Positions 18,315 to 27,821 of a stretch of DNA of 64,000 nucleotides are shown in pieces (within the stretch, counting starts at the first letter, position 1; each line of letters begins with the position of its first letter). A program made the position numbers and the translations under genes. The notes beneath the pieces are model-generated. The model was not told the DNA's origin and did not search any database. It saw only the letters and a list, made by a program, of their open reading frames with translations. Location: positions 209,596 to 273,595 of the forward strand of contig JBNJKL010000004.1 of assembly GCA_051751065.1 (NCBI GenBank), given 5' to 3'. Source of the DNA: Actinomycetota bacterium. Its GTDB lineage: Bacteria > Actinomycetota > Actinomycetes > Actinomycetales > Microbacteriaceae.

Positions 18315-19019
18315 TCAGACGAGCGTTTCCGTCCGCTGCTCGCGGCGCCCCACGGCTCGCAACGCCACCTGAAGCCTGTCCCGCACGTTCCATTTGGTCA
18401 TGACTCTGCCCAGGTGCGCTTTCACCGTCGCCTCCGACAGATGGAGGGTCGCGGCGATCTCGCGGTTCGTCATTCCGCGGGTGAGCAGACGCACGACCTC
18501 ACGCTCGCGCGGTGCGAGCAGTTCCTGGCCACCGCCGCTCGACGGCTCGCCGTGCGAGACCCGCGCGATCAGCGAGAGCATCTCGCGCAACACCAACTGC
18601 GAGGCGAACACGTGCCCGGCCGCGACGTCGGTGACCGCTCTGAGCAGTTCCTCGGGCGCCGCGTCTCGTCCGACGATCCCCGCGGTTCCGGCATCGAGCA
18701 GCGCGGGAACGGCGGAGAGCAGTTCAGTCGGGGTTAGCGCGACGACCCGCAGTCGCGTCCTCACCACGGCGATCGATGCGAGTGCGGCGGGGAGGTCGGC
18801 CGCGACGTCGTAGATGATCACGGGCGTTCGCACACCCGCACGGGTGCACGCCCGCGTGATCTCGTCTCCTGGCCCCGGGGAGATGTCCCCCACGAGGACG
18901 GTCAGGCCCGTTTCCGAGAGCAGATGGGAGAGGGCCGAGGCGACGAGCGCCTCGCGGGAGATGATCATGACCTCGTGAGCCGCACGCGCGGATGATCGAA
19001 GAGCCCCCAGATCTCGCAT
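18315..19019 (-). CDS. LuxR/FixJ-type transcriptional regulator with a degenerate receiver-like N-domain
   Basis: C-terminal LuxR HTH (LAPREREVVRLLTRGMTNREIAATLHLSEATVKAHLGRVMTKW). In the N-domain the acidic pair is replaced (IISREAL) and the Lys position reads GRDA. The start is ATG 19019 (RBS GGGGGAGAA) or ATG 19037. Confidence 0.8.
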   Translation of the reverse strand: MRDLGALRSSARAAHEVMIISREALVASALSHLLSETGLTVLVGDISPGPGDEITRACTRAGVRTPVIIYDVAADLPAALASIAVVRTRLRVVALTPTELLSAVPALLDAGTAGIVGRDAAPEELLRAVTDVAAGHVFASQLVLREMLSLIARVSHGEPSSGGGQELLAPREREVVRLLTRGMTNREIAATLHLSEATVKAHLGRVMTKWNVRDRLQVALRAVGRREQRTETLV

Positions 19020-19131
19020 GACCGCTTTCTCCCCCATCTCATAAAAGCGTTGATTGCGAAACAGTAGCACGGTTGTTCAGCGCGATCCGGGGGTTTCGTG
19101 TCCTCTCTTCGGGGGACACGCCCCAGGCACT

Positions 19132-19866
19132 TCAGACGACGTCGCGCATCAGGAACAGGCGGAACGCAACGCCCACAGCCACCGCCAGAAAGAGCGCAAG
19201 AACGGCCCCGGCGGCGACAGCGGTGATGCCCTCGCCGCCCCCGACTCCGATCGACTCGAGATCGAATCCGAACGCGCGCGCACCCAGCGGGAGCGGCAAC
19301 CACGCGGCGATGGCGGGAAGGAAACCGGCCAACGGCAGCGCGCCCCCCAGCGAGAGCGGGACCACGACGAGCGCGAGGAGATGCATGCGGACGATCACGC
19401 CGAGACTCAGGCCCCACACCGCCCCCACGGCCGCGAAGCACACCGTGCGCGCCACGGTCCACGCCTCGACCTCGCCCACGCCCCACGCGGCGAGCGCGAC
19501 GAGATGAGTGGCGATGACGGTACCCGCGGCGATCACGACACCACCCGCCAGGGCGAAGGGCAGTCGTGCGGCGAACGCGGGAAGTCGCCGGGTCAGCGTG
19601 ATCTGGCGGGACACGACGCCGTCGCGGTGGTCCATCGTGTACCGGAAGGAGGCGTAGATCGCACTGAGCATCACCGCCGAGAGGGTGCTCAGCGTGTGAA
19701 CCTCGTCGACGAAACTCTCCCGCACGGCAGCGGGAGCCGTGGCCAGTTCCGACGGCACCCCGATCAGGAACGTGAGCGGAAGGACCACCGCGATGAGGGC
19801 CAGCACCCGCAGGACGGTGTCGAAAGCGAAGGAGACTGCACGCGCGCGCAGCGCCGACGCGCTCAT
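19132..19866 (-). CDS. ABC-2-type transporter permease (cluster exporter, subunit 2)
   Basis: Start at ATG 19866 with an ATGA overlap with the upstream permease. Six hydrophobic helices. Track ORF 19132-20283 is over-extended. Confidence 0.7.
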   Translation of the reverse strand: MSASALRARAVSFAFDTVLRVLALIAVVLPLTFLIGVPSELATAPAAVRESFVDEVHTLSTLSAVMLSAIYASFRYTMDHRDGVVSRQITLTRRLPAFAARLPFALAGGVVIAAGTVIATHLVALAAWGVGEVEAWTVARTVCFAAVGAVWGLSLGVIVRMHLLALVVVPLSLGGALPLAGFLPAIAAWLPLPLGARAFGFDLESIGVGGGEGITAVAAGAVLALFLAVAVGVAFRLFLMRDVV

Positions 19867-25531: not shown

Positions 25532-26781
25532 ACCGGACCCTCACGGAATCGGCGGATCCCCTCGGACAGTGCCCGTCGGAGAGTCGCGAGCTCGTCGGCG
25601 CCGAAACCGTACCCCGGCACGAGAGCCACGCCGTCCGGCGACGGCTGCACGTTCGCCCCGTGCTCGGCCACGGCACGAACGAGCTCGCTCCCCTCCTCGC
25701 GCGCCAGACTCCCCCCTGCGCGTCCTTCCACCACGAGCCCGAGGAAACAGCCTCGGCCGGTCACCCGCTGGACGAGACCGTCGGCGACCAGCTCCGCAGC
25801 GAGAACGCGCAGCTCCTCACCGAGCACACGCGTCGTGTGCTCCACGTCGGTTCGACGCATCTCCTCGGTGACGGCCAGGACCGCGGCTGCGGAAGCCGGC
25901 GTGCCCGCCTGCGTCTCGCCGTGGACGAAGGTCCACCCGCCACGCACGAACGTCGATGCGATCCGCGTCCCCACCAGCAGCGCCGCGGCGGCCATCGCGC
26001 CGTTGGTCAACGCCTTCGACAACACGAGGAGGTCGGGGGGAACATCCCATCCACCCGATGCGAACAGCGGCCCCGTGCGCGCGAAGCCGGTCGCCACTTC
26101 GTCCGCCACGAGCAGGAATTCGTGCCGTTCCCGCAACTCGCCCACACGACGCAGGAAGTCATCGGCGACCTCGCGGGCCCCCGTCCCCAGCACGGGCTCG
26201 ATCACGACCGCGGCGACCCGCGGGCCTTCCCGCTCGAGAAGCGTCGTCAGCTGCTCACCGCCGTCATCGTGGGCGACATGACGGACGGTGCGCCGATCGA
26301 CGCCGTAGACGCCCTGCAACAGGTCGTCGCCGCTGAGCGACTGGCTCCCATACATGGTTCCGTGGTAGCTCCCGCGCAGCCCGACGACGATGCTCCGCGA
26401 CGGATCCCCGCCCTGCGCCCAGAACTGTCGGCACAGCTTCATGGCCGCGTCGATCGCCGCGCCGCCGGAGGTCGAGAACACGACCCGTGAGTACGTGTCG
26501 CTGCCGGCCAGATCCACCAGCGTGTCGGCGGCATCCATCGCGTACCGGTGCGGAGTGCGGAACAGCGACAGGTACGACGCTTCGCGCATCGCCCGGTCCA
26601 CCGCGTCCGCGACGACGGGATTGCCGTACCCGAGCGGGACGTTCCACAACCCGCTGGTCGCGCAGAGACGCCGTGACCCGTCCGCGTACTCGACGTGATG
26701 CCCGTGCGCCCCCACAGGAATCTCGTCCGGAGCGAATCGCGCGTCGGCGGGGACGAGGGAGGTCCACAGCGCGGCCGTCAT
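25528..26781 (-). CDS. mpaD: Daptide-type RiPP biosynthesis aminotransferase (class III, PLP-dependent)
   Basis: 417 aa. LVADEVATGFARTG, with the PLP-lysine context LLVLSKALTNG. ATGA overlap with the upstream gene. Confidence 0.9.
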   Translation of the reverse strand: MTAALWTSLVPADARFAPDEIPVGAHGHHVEYADGSRRLCATSGLWNVPLGYGNPVVADAVDRAMREASYLSLFRTPHRYAMDAADTLVDLAGSDTYSRVVFSTSGGAAIDAAMKLCRQFWAQGGDPSRSIVVGLRGSYHGTMYGSQSLSGDDLLQGVYGVDRRTVRHVAHDDGGEQLTTLLEREGPRVAAVVIEPVLGTGAREVADDFLRRVGELRERHEFLLVADEVATGFARTGPLFASGGWDVPPDLLVLSKALTNGAMAAAALLVGTRIASTFVRGGWTFVHGETQAGTPASAAAVLAVTEEMRRTDVEHTTRVLGEELRVLAAELVADGLVQRVTGRGCFLGLVVEGRAGGSLAREEGSELVRAVAEHGANVQPSPDGVALVPGYGFGADELATLRRALSEGIRRFREGPV

Positions 26782-27821
26782 GACGCCACGACACTCAAGT
26801 GCGGAGCTGTCTCAGCACCCACTGAACGGCCGCACCGCACGCCCAGTTCATCGATGGCCTGGCGGCACAGGCTCAGTGCATCGGGCCGCGAGAGCCCCAG
26901 GTGGCGGGCGACACGACGGGCGGCACGCTCGACTGTTCGTGAGGTCTGGACGACCTCCACGACAGCGGCCGACTCGGGCGTCAGCCGCTGCCGTCGCAGA
27001 GTGGTCAGGTCTGCGAGGATGACCTCCTGCGGGGACACCACGAGGAACGGATCTGTTCCGCGCGGCTCCGCCTCCTGCGCGTCATCCTGGACGAGAGCAC
27101 GGCCGAACCCCCCGATCAGGTCCTGTCCCGAGCGCAACCCCAGCGTGCGCATCAGGTCGCCGGCACGGAGGTAGCGCTCCAGCCAGGGCCGAGCGCCGAC
27201 GTCGCTCACGAGGACCTCCATCGGCGCGACGGCTCCGAGTGCCGCGATCCGCGGGCGCGGCGTGGCGAGGGCCGCACTCAGGCCCCGTACCTCACCGAGG
27301 TCGATGCCCTGCGCACCGAAGGTCATCCGTCCGTCGGCGTGCAGATGGAGCGATGTGGGCGGCTCCACGAGGAACGGGGCGACCAGAGCCTGGCGGTCCG
27401 CGATCTGCAGCCTGGGGTCGATCACGGCCGGAGGGAAGACGCCGGTGCTCCGTGCGAGATCAGCGTCCTCGATGAAGGCGCGCCAACCGTGAACGTCCCG
27501 AAAGCGCACGATCGTCGGCGCGAGGATCTCGACGAACGACGCGGCGACGTAGTCCTGCAGTTCGACGTGCAGATCGCCCACGAACAGGTCGTCACCGGAT
27601 TCCCGCAGTGCGCCGGAGTACGCGATCGCAATCGCCGGCCACTGCGCGTCGCCGGAGTCGATCGGGACGAGCATCGCATCCCGGGCCGTCGCGACGCGGC
27701 CGAGTTCCGCGAGCGCGACCCCGTGCTCCACGAAGAACACGCGATCGCACGTGTCCGTGTTTCCGGTGATCCATTCCTGGAGCACCGTCGCGCCGGGCGG
27801 CGTGGGGGTCGTGTCGTGCAC
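26778..27821 (-). CDS. mpaB: Daptide biosynthesis RiPP-recognition (accessory) protein with a C-terminal RRE-like winged helix
   Basis: 347 aa, GTG start after GGAAGGAA. I recognise no catalytic motif. The last ~80 aa (FLVVSPQEVILADLTTLRRQRLTPESAAVVEVV...LCRQAIDELG) look like a PqqD-type RRE. It is the first gene of the operon. Confidence 0.7.
   Translation of the reverse strand: MHDTTPTPPGATVLQEWITGNTDTCDRVFFVEHGVALAELGRVATARDAMLVPIDSGDAQWPAIAIAYSGALRESGDDLFVGDLHVELQDYVAASFVEILAPTIVRFRDVHGWRAFIEDADLARSTGVFPPAVIDPRLQIADRQALVAPFLVEPPTSLHLHADGRMTFGAQGIDLGEVRGLSAALATPRPRIAALGAVAPMEVLVSDVGARPWLERYLRAGDLMRTLGLRSGQDLIGGFGRALVQDDAQEAEPRGTDPFLVVSPQEVILADLTTLRRQRLTPESAAVVEVVQTSRTVERAARRVARHLGLSRPDALSLCRQAIDELGVRCGRSVGAETAPHLSVVAS

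What the first reader, a model, noticed from the sequence alone, without database searches (positions are those of the whole stretch)
18315..27821. Complete daptide-type RiPP biosynthetic gene cluster: a 12-gene, translationally coupled minus-strand operon
Seen in the sequence. In transcription order the genes are: a 347-aa protein with no recognisable catalytic motif but an RRE-like C-terminus (26778-27821); a class III PLP aminotransferase (25528-26781); an Fe-ADH-fold dehydrogenase (24341-25531); three short ORFs that each end in Thr-stop (24334-23865); a class I SAM methyltransferase (22989-23807); an M50 intramembrane metalloprotease (21304-22992); an ABC ATPase plus two ABC-2 permeases (19132-21319); and a LuxR-type regulator (18315-19019). 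Adjacent genes overlap by ATGA/GTGA or by 16 nt at six junctions, which argues for a single transcription and translation unit. Established knowledge: this enzyme set defines the daptide RiPP class, characterised on the mpa cluster of Microbacterium paraoxydans. There, a C-terminal Thr is converted to (S)-N2,N2-dimethyl-1,2-propanediamine by oxidative decarboxylation (Fe-ADH-like enzyme plus RRE-bearing accessory protein), transamination and double N-methylation. The product is a peptide with two amino termini. Inference: this locus makes up to three such peptides, which are probably membrane-active helices exported by the linked ABC system. The class is known, but this locus, its precursor set and its genomic context (see the separate findings) deserve attention. 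It is the most unusual chemistry encoded in the window.
Basis: partly seen in the sequence, partly recalled or inferred. Interest (0 to 1): 0.92.

Follow-up and report, generated by a model that had tools for sequence, protein, structure and literature searches.

The report
Divergent daptide peptide gene cluster
This Microbacterium locus is a genuine, intact gene cluster for daptides (ribosomal peptides whose C-terminal threonine is converted to a dimethylated amine); the class is already known, but this copy belongs to a divergent, regulator-linked lineage at a different chromosomal site from the characterised one.

Summary
All 12 minus-strand genes, three Thr-stop precursors and six overlapping junctions are as described. 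Eight of nine tested products pass NCBIfam's curated daptide cutoffs. The dehydrogenase falls just short (284 vs 300 bits) but is orthologous by synteny and 79 invariant residues. Cleavage after Pro plus a -16.94 Da shift reproduces the published M. paraoxydans masses, so I predict products at [M+H]+ 2338.26, 2490.35 and 2382.28.

Corrections:
- The conserved unit is 11 genes (B-D-C-A1-A2-A3-M-P-T1-T2-T3), not 12.
- A covarying hairpin follows the last precursor gene in all 33 related loci checked.
- The LuxR gene is an atypical response regulator behind a 112-nt spacer holding a conserved palindrome. It is absent from 30 canonical Microbacterium clusters. In other genomes it sits in the same argG-adjacent slot beside a non-daptide ABC cassette.

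The cluster is the deepest branch among Microbacterium daptide clusters and lies at a different chromosomal site. Two flanking 67-nt palindromes are REP-like; the argG-side copy is a later insertion, not an island scar.

Verdict: a new member of a known kind.

The parts
26778..27821 (-). dapB/mpaB: accessory protein with an N-terminal domain of unknown fold and a C-terminal RRE; partner of the dehydrogenase
   Evidence: NF041823 daptide_RRE, 245 bits against a cutoff of 150. AF2 model pLDDT 86, with residues 259-326 forming three strands then three helices. Foldseek hits to TbiB1, PqqD and lasso B1 RREs, TM 0.60-0.66.
25528..26781 (-). dapD: class III PLP aminotransferase (ketone to primary amine)
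   Evidence: NF041821, 530 bits against a cutoff of 450; PF00202. SKAL Lys motif present.
24341..25531 (-). dapC: Fe-ADH-fold NAD(P)-dependent oxidative decarboxylase of the C-terminal Thr
   Evidence: NF041822, 284.3 bits, E 1e-84, just under the 300 cutoff; PF00465. 79 residues are invariant with 30 orthologues. Canonical metal ligands are replaced (D to E184, H to R188) in all of them.
24200..24334 (-). Precursor A1 (44 aa). Leader ends ...EELDALDAP; predicted core SWESFYQGMLAGLGVVGVAVIAT
   Evidence: NF041805 MpaA1 family, 68.9 bits against a cutoff of 40. Ends in Thr-stop. Predicted product [M+H]+ 2338.263.
24024..24161 (-). Precursor A2 (45 aa). Leader ends ...TELEPMDAP; predicted core DDATDWIRGFNIGVAAGVIAFVVT
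   Evidence: NF041806 MpaA2 family, 63 bits against a cutoff of 40. Predicted product [M+H]+ 2490.350.
23865..23987 (-). Precursor A3 (40 aa). Leader ends ...EELDALDAP; predicted core LEWWEHVGYWVAIAGGVAAIAT
   Evidence: NF041807 MpaA3 family, 74.3 bits against a cutoff of 40. Predicted product [M+H]+ 2382.276.
23827..23862 (-). Conserved intra-operon RNA hairpin (16-bp stem, no U-tract) just after the last precursor stop codon; inferred attenuator or mRNA 3'-end stabiliser
   Evidence: -36.4 kcal/mol, z = -4.65. Present at the same position in the 30 GTDB loci in which the last precursor stop could be located, plus L051 and L053. 11 consensus pairs, 5 with compensatory changes.
22989..23807 (-). 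dapM: SAM-dependent N,N-dimethyltransferase
   Evidence: NF041820, 253.6 bits against a cutoff of 175; Methyltransf_25.
21304..22992 (-). dapP: RRE-fused intramembrane M50-type metalloprotease (leader removal after Pro -1)
   Evidence: NF041824, 368.6 bits against a cutoff of 300, covering residues 20-393. HEVAH190 and NLIPFVRFDG283 present. About 8 hydrophobic segments.
20588..21319 (-). T1: ABC ATPase
   Evidence: PF00005. Best NCBIfam match is the lantibiotic-protection ABC ATPase TIGR03740, 191 bits, below its 309.75 cutoff.
19863..20591 (-). T2: polytopic membrane subunit of the ABC system
   Evidence: No family hit. About 5 hydrophobic segments. Orthologue at the same position in all related loci.
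19132..19866 (-). T3: second polytopic membrane subunit
   Evidence: No family hit. About 6-7 hydrophobic segments. Conserved position; the most divergent protein of the cluster (32-40% identity).
19099..19118 (.). 7-6-7 palindrome TGTCC(T/C)C-N6-GGGGACA in the T3-R spacer; candidate operator of the regulator (alternatively a terminator)
   Evidence: Conserved upstream of the R gene in the window, L051, L053, L054 and L056, with invariant arms and variable loops, whatever the upstream cassette.
18315..19019 (-). R: NarL/LuxR-family atypical (degenerate-receiver) response regulator; resident of the slot, probably its own transcription unit
   Evidence: GerE HTH with no Response_reg hit. Against NarL: D13 to S, D14 to R, K109 to R, D59 kept, in all 6 orthologues. 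26 of the 30 closest relatives lack PF00072. Absent from 30 canonical clusters. Found beside non-daptide cassettes in L054 and L055.
27822..27960 (.). Divergent mpaB-argG control region, containing the inverted repeat GCGCTGTCTAGAC-N25-GTCTAGACACCGC (27907-27957)
   Evidence: GTCTAGAC occurs only twice in 64 kb, both here. The GTCTAG and GACGGAAGGCGGATGC blocks are conserved in L051 and L052.
27961..28027 (.). REP/MITE-like palindrome (right copy), inserted into the argG-mpaB intergenic region; flanks the cluster but is not part of its function as far as shown
   Evidence: Absent from the otherwise alignable regions of L051 and L052.
18208..18274 (.). REP/MITE-like palindrome (left copy) in the convergent gap between the R gene and the neighbouring plus-strand gene; possible bidirectional terminator
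   Evidence: 82% identical to the right copy, and these are the only two copies in 64 kb. Family members in 16 metagenome contigs are intergenic in most contigs and commonly lie within about 5-25 nt of a gene's 3' end.

Best explanation
The locus is an intact daptide (Dmp-terminated RiPP) biosynthetic cluster in a Microbacterium chromosome.

Inferred pathway, by orthology with the characterised mpa and tfDap systems:
1. Three precursors (A1-A3) are bound through their EL[DE]x[LM]DAP leader by the C-terminal RRE of DapB.
2. DapB presents the C-terminal Thr to the metal-independent, Fe-ADH-fold DapC, which oxidatively decarboxylates it to an aminoacetone ketone.
3. DapD transaminates the ketone to the primary amine.
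4. DapM dimethylates the amine to (S)-N2,N2-dimethyl-1,2-propanediamine.
5. The RRE-fused intramembrane protease DapP cuts after Pro(-1).
6. The T1-T2-T3 ABC system exports the hydrophobic helical products and/or protects the producer.

Predicted products are at [M+H]+ 2338.26, 2490.35 and 2382.28.

Transcription is probably not one uniform 12-gene unit. A conserved hairpin after A3 probably raises the level of the B-D-C-A1-3 message relative to M-P-T. The downstream atypical response regulator R is a separate, slot-resident gene with its own conserved palindrome.

Shown here: gene content, family membership, orthology, conserved RNA structure and genomic context. Inferred: the chemistry, the products, the role of the hairpin, the role of R and the role of the transporter.
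For: - Family membership: NCBIfam daptide equivalogs are passed by B, D, M, P and A1-A3, and C scores E = 1e-84.
- Gene order: identical in 29 of the 31 Microbacterium genome loci (L017 is a truncated contig, L022 a remnant) and in L051; L053 has the same order with one extra gene.
- RRE: the fold of DapB is confirmed.
- Catalytic motifs: all intact.
- DapC: the D-to-E184 and H-to-R188 replacements are invariant in 31 sequences. This matches the metal-independent TfDapC.
- Mass rule: cleavage after Pro plus -16.9425 Da applied to the M. paraoxydans locus L030 gives 2363.3, 2232.3 and 2339.3. The published m/z values are 2363, 2232 and 2339.
- Leader: the experimentally essential hydrophobic positions -7 and -4 and Pro -1 are kept.
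- Hairpin: conserved with covariation.
- Regulator R: separate and resident in the slot.
- Transporter: T1 is closest to lantibiotic-protection ABC ATPases.
Against: - No expression or product data exist for this organism.
- DapC is 16 bits under NCBIfam's curated cutoff because its N-terminal ~56 residues are divergent.
- T2 and T3 have no family assignment.
- The N-terminal RRE of DapP could not be confirmed structurally. The single-sequence model had pLDDT 47.
- No sigma-70-type promoter or canonical terminator was found by consensus scan, so the transcription architecture is inferred from conservation only.
- The biological role of Microbacterium daptides is unknown. The mpa products were haemolytic but not antibacterial.
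Confidence: 0.87

Rival explanations
1. R is the dedicated pathway-specific regulator and the last gene of a true 12-gene operon.
For: R is on the same strand, directly downstream of T3. An R orthologue follows T3 in the two other non-canonical daptide clusters whose downstream region is visible, L051 and L053.
Against: - A 112-nt spacer, unlike the overlapping junctions upstream, contains a palindrome and promoter-like AT-rich blocks. These are conserved even where no daptide genes are present.
- R is absent from all 30 canonical-site clusters, including M. paraoxydans.
- R orthologues occupy the same slot next to an unrelated ABC cassette in Microbacterium sp. 8M and in a metagenome contig.
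Confidence: 0.2
2. The two 67-nt palindromes are the boundaries (att-like scars or a target duplication) of a horizontally acquired island made up of the daptide cluster plus R.
For: - They are the only two copies in 64 kb, in direct orientation, and they bracket 18315-27821 exactly.
- The cluster lies at a non-canonical site, in a slot whose content varies between genomes.
- Third-position GC is slightly lower than in the flanks.
- No copy was found in roughly 700 kb of other Microbacterium DNA.
Against: - The argG-mpaB junction exists without the palindrome in L051 and L052. The palindrome aligns as a later ~85-nt insertion into a conserved intergenic region.
- R and argG flank alternative cassettes in other genomes, so the block is not a unit.
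- The element belongs to a dispersed family that in most metagenome contigs is intergenic and commonly lies just past a gene's 3' end.
- There is no integrase and no tRNA nearby.
Confidence: 0.07
3. The cluster is cryptic or non-functional: a silent or decaying relic that makes no daptides.
For: Decay does occur in the genus. L022 keeps only mpaB at the canonical site. DapC falls below the curated HMM cutoff. No recognisable promoter was found.
Against: - All 11 core ORFs are intact, with coding-type third-position GC of 0.79-0.87.
- Every catalytic motif is kept.
- Translational coupling is preserved at six junctions.
- Ribosome-binding sites, leader recognition residues and the regulatory hairpin are conserved.
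Confidence: 0.12
4. T1-T2-T3 is mainly a LanFEG-like self-protection (immunity) pump, not the dedicated exporter.
For: T1's best family match is the lantibiotic-protection ABC ATPase. The layout of one ATPase plus two small permeases is that of LanFEG (my own knowledge). The hominicin paper raises ABC transporters as possible daptide resistance determinants.
Against: The score of 191 is well below the family cutoff of 309.75. No other exporter is encoded in the cluster. The daptide papers label these genes as export. The two roles are not mutually exclusive.
Confidence: 0.35

Closest known systems
mpa (mpDap) daptide cluster of Microbacterium paraoxydans DSM 15019 (Ren et al. 2023, Nat Commun 14:1624)
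   Same: - Same genus and same gene order, B-D-C-A1-A2-A3-M-P-T1-T2-T3.
- Three precursors that match the MpaA1, A2 and A3 families individually.
- Same core N-termini (SW[ED]SFYQG, DDxxD[WY]IRGF, LEWWEH) and the same C-terminal Thr.
- A hairpin follows the last precursor gene.

   Different: - Proteins are only 40-70% identical (B 43%, D 65%, C 49%, M 47%, P 44%, T1 67%, T2 50%, T3 40% against M. paraoxydans L030).
- This is the deepest branch among the 31 clusters compared.
- The hydrophobic C-terminal halves of the cores differ, and A1 and A3 have Leu in place of Met or Ile at leader position -4.
- The chromosomal site differs: the argG / MoxR-VWA slot here, GNAT / rhodanese flanks there.
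- A linked atypical LuxR regulator is present here and absent there.
Unnamed argG-linked daptide clusters L051 (Logan SRR8369502), L052, and L053 (GCA_049800735.1)
   Same: - L051 has argG divergent from mpaB, precursors of 44, 45 and 40 aa, the same order, and an R orthologue after T3.
- L051 shares the EL[DE]ALD[AT]P leader and the TGTCCCC-N6-GGGGACA palindrome before R.
- L053 also has R after T3.
   Different: - Still only 42-75% identical (L051) or 28-57% identical (L053).
- Neither has the 67-nt REP-like palindromes.
- L053 has an extra 281-aa gene.
- Genes beyond R differ (TetR in L051; a 244-aa gene then purA in L053).
tfDap (Thermobifida fusca) and saDap daptide pathways reconstituted in vitro (ACS Cent Sci 2025, PMC12670281)
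   Same: [quoted passage not shown] DapC is a PF00465 member with its canonical metal ligands substituted and works without metal. DapD and DapM follow. The window's DapC carries equivalent substitutions.
   Different: This locus has no YcaO, LanKC or LanJ tailoring genes, so only the minimal Dmp chemistry is expected. It has three precursors where tfDap has five.
Hominicin daptide of Staphylococcus hominis (Nat Commun 2025, PMC12749797)
   Same: A Dmp-terminated, hydrophobic, membrane-active peptide. This supports a pore-forming or membrane-targeting mode of action for the class.
   Different: It is a Bacillota-type cluster with a different oxidoreductase family. It is plasmid-borne, has extra dehydration, D-Ala and N-methylation steps, and uses HomI for immunity where this locus has an ABC system.
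Atypical (phosphorylation-independent) NarL/LuxR-family response regulators linked to actinomycete natural-product clusters (my own knowledge; not tested against named examples)
   Same: GerE-type HTH plus a receiver-like domain that lacks the acidic pocket and the conserved Lys. No partner kinase gene is adjacent.
   Different: Here the regulator is tied to a chromosomal slot, not to one pathway. It sits beside either a daptide cluster or an unrelated ABC cassette.

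Membership tests
Daptide RiPP biosynthetic gene cluster | One or more short precursor peptides with an invariant C-terminal Thr | tested here: met
   Three ORFs end in Thr-stop. NF041805, NF041806 and NF041807 score 68.9, 63 and 74.3 bits against cutoffs of 40.
Daptide RiPP biosynthetic gene cluster | Leader with an ELExMEAP-type recognition motif: hydrophobic residues at -7 and -4, Pro at -1 | tested here: met
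   A1 and A3 have ELDALDAP and A2 has ELEPMDAP. L(-7) and M(-4) are essential in MpaA1. Here position -4 is Leu, Met and Leu in A1, A2 and A3.
Daptide RiPP biosynthetic gene cluster | DapB: protein of unknown function with a C-terminal RRE | tested here: met
   NF041823, 245.2 bits against a cutoff of 150. AF2 model pLDDT 86 with a three-strand, three-helix C-terminus. Foldseek hits to TbiB1, PqqD and lasso B1 RREs, TM 0.60-0.66 normalised to the target, although the whole-chain E-values are not significant.
Daptide RiPP biosynthetic gene cluster | DapC: PF00465-fold oxidative decarboxylase (actinobacterial type) | tested here: met
   NF041822 E = 1.2e-84, but 284.3 bits is below the curated 300. 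The next best family scores E = 7e-11. PF00465 is hit. Orthologous position in 33 loci. 79 invariant residues, and the family-wide E184/R188 replacements of the metal ligands. The shortfall comes from a divergent N-terminal ~56 aa.
Daptide RiPP biosynthetic gene cluster | DapD: class III PLP aminotransferase | tested here: met
   NF041821, 530.3 bits against a cutoff of 450; PF00202.
Daptide RiPP biosynthetic gene cluster | DapM: SAM-dependent methyltransferase | tested here: met
   NF041820, 253.6 bits against a cutoff of 175.
Daptide RiPP biosynthetic gene cluster | DapP: intramembrane M50/site-2 type metalloprotease | tested here: met
   NF041824, 368.6 bits against a cutoff of 300. HEVAH and NxxPxxxxDG motifs present.
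Daptide RiPP biosynthetic gene cluster | N-terminal RRE domain fused to DapP | tested here: inconclusive
   The family HMM aligns from residue 20, so the N-terminal domain is homologous to that of the family. Pfam finds nothing. The single-sequence AF2 model is unreliable (pLDDT 46.8), although its secondary-structure order is RRE-like.
Daptide RiPP biosynthetic gene cluster | Mature product carries a C-terminal (S)-N2,N2-dimethyl-1,2-propanediamine (-17 Da) | not testable with these tools
   Needs LC-MS/MS or NMR. The rule was validated in silico only, against the published mpa masses.
Canonical Microbacterium mpa-type locus (as in M. paraoxydans) | Located at the conserved chromosomal site, with Cys/Met-PLP enzyme and GNAT genes upstream and a UPF0176/rhodanese gene downstream | tested here: not met
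   Most relatives (about 25 of the 30 canonical loci on both sides; all 30 on the downstream side) share those flanks. None of them is present around the window's cluster, and none of the window's flanks is present in theirs.
LanFEG-type lantibiotic protection ABC transporter | ATPase matching the galliderm_ABC/LanF family, plus two LanE/LanG-like permeases | tested here: inconclusive
   TIGR03740 is the best hit for T1, but 191.4 bits is below its 309.75 cutoff. T2 and T3 match no permease family. The one-ATPase, two-permease architecture is the same.
Typical phosphorylatable NarL/FixJ response regulator | Receiver domain with an acidic Asp-Asp pocket, a phospho-acceptor Asp and a conserved Lys; detectable PF00072 | tested here: not met
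   No PF00072 hit. The NarL D13/D14 positions are S/R and K109 is R, with only D59 kept. The same holds in all 6 orthologues (the NarL sequence was recalled from memory). 26 of the 30 closest relatives lack PF00072. The GerE HTH is present (63.8 bits).

The most novel reading that the evidence does not exclude
The argG-adjacent position is a recombination slot in Microbacterium. It is guarded by a resident atypical LuxR-family regulator and its conserved TGTCCCC-N6-GGGGACA site. Alternative membrane-peptide or ABC cassettes are swapped in and out of it: a daptide cluster in the window, L051 and L053, and an unrelated small-membrane-protein/ABC module in strain 8M and L054.

If R senses membrane-active peptides or envelope stress and controls whichever cassette lies upstream, this lineage would provide the first regulatory handle on daptide production. 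It would also hint at the natural role of daptides. The REP-like palindromes flanking the window's block could help such exchange.
Probability: 0.25. Interest if true: 0.55.

Novelty: new member of a known kind. Interest (0 to 1): 0.36.

Why it matters
Daptides were described only in 2023, and their natural function and regulation in actinobacteria are still unknown. This locus adds three things:

- **New core peptides.** Three new cores with exact mass predictions, from the most divergent Microbacterium lineage seen here. They are useful for probing how tolerant DapB/C recognition is, for example Leu in place of Met at leader position -4.
- **A conserved RNA hairpin after the precursor genes.** It is found across 33 related loci, is not mentioned in the daptide papers I read, and probably sets the ratio of precursor to enzyme.
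- **A candidate regulator and operator linked to daptide clusters.** The atypical LuxR regulator and its candidate operator could be used to activate otherwise silent clusters.

None of this changes the chemistry or the class definition. NCBI's annotation pipeline would already name most of these genes.

Tried and rejected
- **Exact-sequence look-up of the aminotransferase** found nothing. The first genome scan with single-protein patterns also found no relatives, so I repeated it with an alignment.
- **Consensus promoter and terminator scan** gave nothing useful on the operon strand.
- **Rfam** found no family for the hairpins or anywhere in the window. The only sub-threshold hits were chance matches of the palindrome to a miRNA. 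There are no tRNAs.
- **The T3-R spacer folded as a whole** is no more stable than shuffled sequence. Only the short palindrome within it is conserved.
- **The att-site / island-boundary reading of the 67-nt repeats** was rejected for the argG side after aligning with L051 and L052.
- **Horizontal transfer inferred from divergence alone** was rejected. The host's ArgG is itself slightly outside the oxydans group (92-94% vs 95-99% identity).
- **The alternative cassette in 8M and L054 as a degraded daptide transporter** was rejected. The ATPase is only 36-37% identical, and there is no T2/T3 similarity.
- **Pfam at E up to 10** did not detect RRE domains in DapB or DapP, or ABC-2 domains in T2 and T3.
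- **The single-sequence AF2 model of the DapP N-terminus** was too poor to search with.
- **P0057 look-up** failed.
- **The 87-nt repeat pair** does not mark paralogous genes.

Full report
**1. The observation**

The window is about 69% GC throughout. ArgG, encoded next to the locus, is 92-94% identical to ArgG of many Microbacterium species. The host is therefore a Microbacterium.

Reading the DNA directly gives these precursor genes:
- A1: 24200-24334, 44 aa
- A2: 24024-24161, 45 aa
- A3: 23865-23987, 40 aa

Each has a GAGGAGG-like ribosome-binding site and ends in Thr-stop.

Six junctions overlap exactly as stated: B/D ATGA, D/C GTGA, M/P ATGA, P/T1 16 nt, T1/T2 ATGA and T2/T3 ATGA. The other five junctions are gaps of 6, 38, 36, 57 and 112 nt.

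**2. Family tests**

Against NCBIfam, the daptide-specific equivalog models are hit as follows:

| Product | Model | Bits | Curated cutoff |
|---|---|---|---|
| 347-aa protein (DapB) | daptide_RRE | 245 | 150 |
| Aminotransferase (DapD) | daptide_amino | 530 | 450 |
| Methyltransferase (DapM) | daptide_MTase | 254 | 175 |
| Protease (DapP) | daptide_HExxH | 369 | 300 |
| A1 / A2 / A3 | MpaA1 / MpaA2 / MpaA3 | 69 / 63 / 74 | 40 |
| Dehydrogenase (DapC) | daptide_DH | 284.3 | 300 |

The dehydrogenase scores E = 1e-84 but falls just under its cutoff, with its first ~56 residues unmatched. Aligned with 30 orthologues, it shares 79 invariant residues, including GGGS. At the canonical Fe-ADH G-x-D-x-L-x-H metal motif it has Glu184 and Arg188, as every orthologue does. 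This agrees with the 2025 in vitro work showing that actinobacterial DapC has lost the canonical metal ligands and acts without metal. I therefore accept it as DapC.

Pfam gives the expected generic folds. The catalytic motifs of the protease, aminotransferase, methyltransferase and ATPase are all present.

An AlphaFold model of the 347-aa protein is confident (pLDDT 86, pTM 0.83). It ends in three strands followed by three helices at residues 259-326. Foldseek matches this part to lasso-peptide RREs (TbiB1, target-normalised TM 0.60-0.66, rmsd about 3 Å), to PqqD and to another lasso B1 protein. The N-terminal domain matches nothing. The PDB holds no sequence relatives.

T1 is an ABC ATPase whose best family match is the lantibiotic-protection type, below that family's cutoff. 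T2 and T3 match no family. They are polytopic membrane proteins.

**3. Products**

Ren et al. [quoted passage not shown] The three products gave m/z 2363, 2232 and 2339.

I applied cleavage after Pro plus the computed shift of -16.9425 Da (C4H8NO3 to C5H13N2) to the M. paraoxydans locus L030. This gives 2363.31, 2232.28 and 2339.29, so the rule is validated.

For the window it predicts:
- SWESFYQGMLAGLGVVGVAVIA-Dmp, [M+H]+ 2338.263
- DDATDWIRGFNIGVAAGVIAFVV-Dmp, [M+H]+ 2490.350
- LEWWEHVGYWVAIAGGVAAIA-Dmp, [M+H]+ 2382.276

The N-terminal halves of the cores are conserved with MpaA1-3, while the hydrophobic halves differ.

Leader positions -7 (Leu) and -1 (Pro) are kept. Position -4, which is essential in MpaA1, is Leu in A1 and A3 and Met in A2.

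**4. Relatives and gene order**

The closest non-self DapB among 5.8 billion proteins is 54% identical.

Thirty-one Microbacterium species genomes carry a relative. Twenty-nine of them have the identical order B-D-C-A1-A2-A3-M-P-T1-T2-T3. The exceptions are L017, a truncated contig, and L022, which retains only mpaB.

For D, C, M, P, T1, T2 and T3, the window's version is less similar to every relative than any two relatives are to each other. For example, M is at most 50% identical against a minimum of 59% among the others, and T3 at most 40% against at least 49%. The cluster is therefore the deepest branch.

The host is also somewhat outside the oxydans/phyllosphaerae group by ArgG, so divergence alone does not prove transfer.

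**5. A conserved hairpin**

A 16-bp GC-rich hairpin lies 2 nt after the A3 stop codon, at 23827-23862 (-36.4 kcal/mol, z = -4.65, no U-tract).

A hairpin occupies the same position in the 30 GTDB loci in which the last precursor stop could be located, and in L051 and L053. An RNAalifold consensus has 11 pairs, 5 of them with compensatory double changes. The window's stem sequence differs from the common GGGTGCGGGCG type.

By analogy with structural-gene hairpins in lanthipeptide operons (my own knowledge), I infer that it attenuates read-through or stabilises the B-D-C-A1-3 message. This would raise precursor levels relative to M-P-T. The inference is untested.

**6. The regulator is not part of the conserved unit**

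R has no counterpart in the 30 canonical clusters. Those clusters are flanked by a GNAT gene and a rhodanese-family gene.

R has a GerE HTH but no detectable receiver domain in Pfam. Aligned with NarL (sequence recalled from memory), the acidic pair is Ser-Arg, the conserved Lys is Arg, and the phospho-acceptor Asp is kept. All six orthologues examined share this signature and an almost invariant recognition helix. Of the 30 closest relatives in the database, 26 lack PF00072, while more distant hits have it. No kinase gene is adjacent.

Contexts of R's relatives:
- L051 and L053 are daptide clusters with R after T3.
- L054 and Microbacterium sp. 8M (L055) have argG, then an unrelated ABC cassette, then R. 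The cassette has an 86-aa single-pass membrane protein, an ATPase 36-37% identical to T1, and polytopic membrane proteins with no T2/T3 similarity.
- L055 then continues into the same MoxR-DUF58-VWA operon that flanks the window's locus.

R is therefore a resident of the argG-adjacent slot, and the cassette upstream of it varies.

A 7-6-7 palindrome, TGTCCCC-N6-GGGGACA, lies upstream of R in five of six loci. Its arms are invariant and its loops vary, whatever the cassette and even in a 61% GC organism. The A3 hairpin covaries, whereas this site is conserved at the sequence level, which points to a protein-binding site. A terminator role is not excluded, since it lies 14-158 nt after the upstream stop codon.

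**7. Genomic context**

The canonical clusters share one chromosomal site. None of those flanking genes is near the window's cluster, and none of the window's flanks is near theirs.

In relatives W4I20 and UFMG61, the segment between the MoxR/VWA operon and argG holds Zip, a flavodoxin-like reductase, MFS and HxlR genes. UFMG61 keeps its daptide cluster elsewhere, in L020.

In L051 and L052, mpaB is again divergent from argG. This defines an argG-linked lineage of at least three genomes.

**8. The flanking palindromes**

A 67-nt element occurs only twice in the window, at 18208-18274 and 27961-28027. The copies are 82% identical and bracket the 12 genes exactly. Each copy is a long hairpin and neither is in Rfam.

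The element is absent from the other Microbacterium DNA I hold. Sixteen metagenome contigs carry members with identical 13-nt arms. In most of these contigs the element is intergenic, commonly within about 5-25 nt of a gene's 3' end, and in six it lies between convergent genes.

Aligning the argG-mpaB spacers of the window, L051 and L052 shows conserved blocks on both sides. The palindrome appears as an ~85-nt insertion unique to the window.

I conclude that it is a REP/MITE-like mobile palindrome, not an integration scar. Why the only two copies flank this block remains unexplained.

**9. Comparison and verdict**

The locus meets every sequence-testable defining feature of the daptide class, except that the DapP N-terminal RRE fold could not be confirmed structurally. 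It is not the canonical mpa-type locus by position, regulator or sequence distance.

The class, its chemistry and its HMMs already exist, so this is a new member of a known kind.

- validated product masses
- the conserved hairpin
- the status of the regulator and its palindrome
- the argG-linked lineage
- the nature of the flanking repeats

Interest is moderate, at 0.36.

Noticed in passing
window 18208-18274 and 27961-28027; L035-L050: A 67-nt palindromic element (arms TTTGCCGCGACAC / GTGTCGCGGCAAA) occurs only twice in 64 kb, exactly flanking the daptide block. Sixteen metagenome contigs carry members, in most of them intergenic and commonly just past a gene's 3' end. None was found in roughly 700 kb of other Microbacterium DNA. 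The family is not in Rfam.
   Followed up: partly
window 60004-60023 (within the stretch 59843-60445, which has no convincing ORF): A second, perfect copy of the TGTCCCC-N6-GGGGACA palindrome lies in a ~600-nt stretch of lower GC with no convincing ORF, upstream of a GCS2-family glutamate-cysteine ligase gene (60446-61777). It could be a second target of the regulator, or just a terminator-type hairpin.
   Followed up: partly
window 1915-2001 and 3903-3989: 87-nt direct repeats (86% identical) bracket an MFS transporter gene (1931-3370) lying between the lactonase and Pyr_redox genes. In L053 and L054 those two genes are adjacent, with no MFS gene and no repeat. This looks like a second insertion flanked by long direct repeats.
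   Followed up: partly
L054 1646-5498; L055 6354-9910: An alternative cassette occupies the same argG-to-R slot. It has an 86-aa single-pass membrane protein with a Cys-containing C-terminus (...WPALDMPSWSSGGTWKMYCRS), an ABC ATPase, a ~100-aa membrane protein, and polytopic proteins of ~495 and ~240 aa. Function unknown; none matches Pfam except the ATPase.
   Followed up: partly
L022 (Microbacterium sp. EST19A) 10001-10960: At the canonical chromosomal site only mpaB remains. The downstream flank gene follows directly, so the rest of the daptide cluster appears to have been deleted in this species.
   Followed up: no
L053 6706-7551: This more distant daptide cluster has an extra 281-aa gene with no Pfam hit, between the protease and the ABC ATPase.
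   Followed up: no
window 27828-27838 and 27897-27907: CCTTCCGTCGG is repeated 69 nt apart. On the operon strand, each copy reads as a GGAAGG ribosome-binding site. The first serves mpaB. The second precedes a 14-codon ORF (ATG at 27892) that is not conserved at the peptide level in L051 or L052.
   Followed up: no
window 30223-32832 (-): An 869-aa predicted surface protein with purple-acid-phosphatase and metallophosphoesterase domains, Ig-like domains and a C-terminal LAVTG sortase signal. It lies between argG and the TetR gene here but not in L051 or L055.
   Followed up: no
P0171 (Logan contig, 1465 bp): A regulator 98% identical to R exists in a public sequencing run, so a very close relative of this strain has been sampled elsewhere.
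   Followed up: no
window 18315-27821 versus flanks: Third-codon-position GC of the cluster genes (0.79-0.87) is slightly below that of neighbouring housekeeping genes (0.88-0.92). This is a weak compositional hint of a different history.
   Followed up: no
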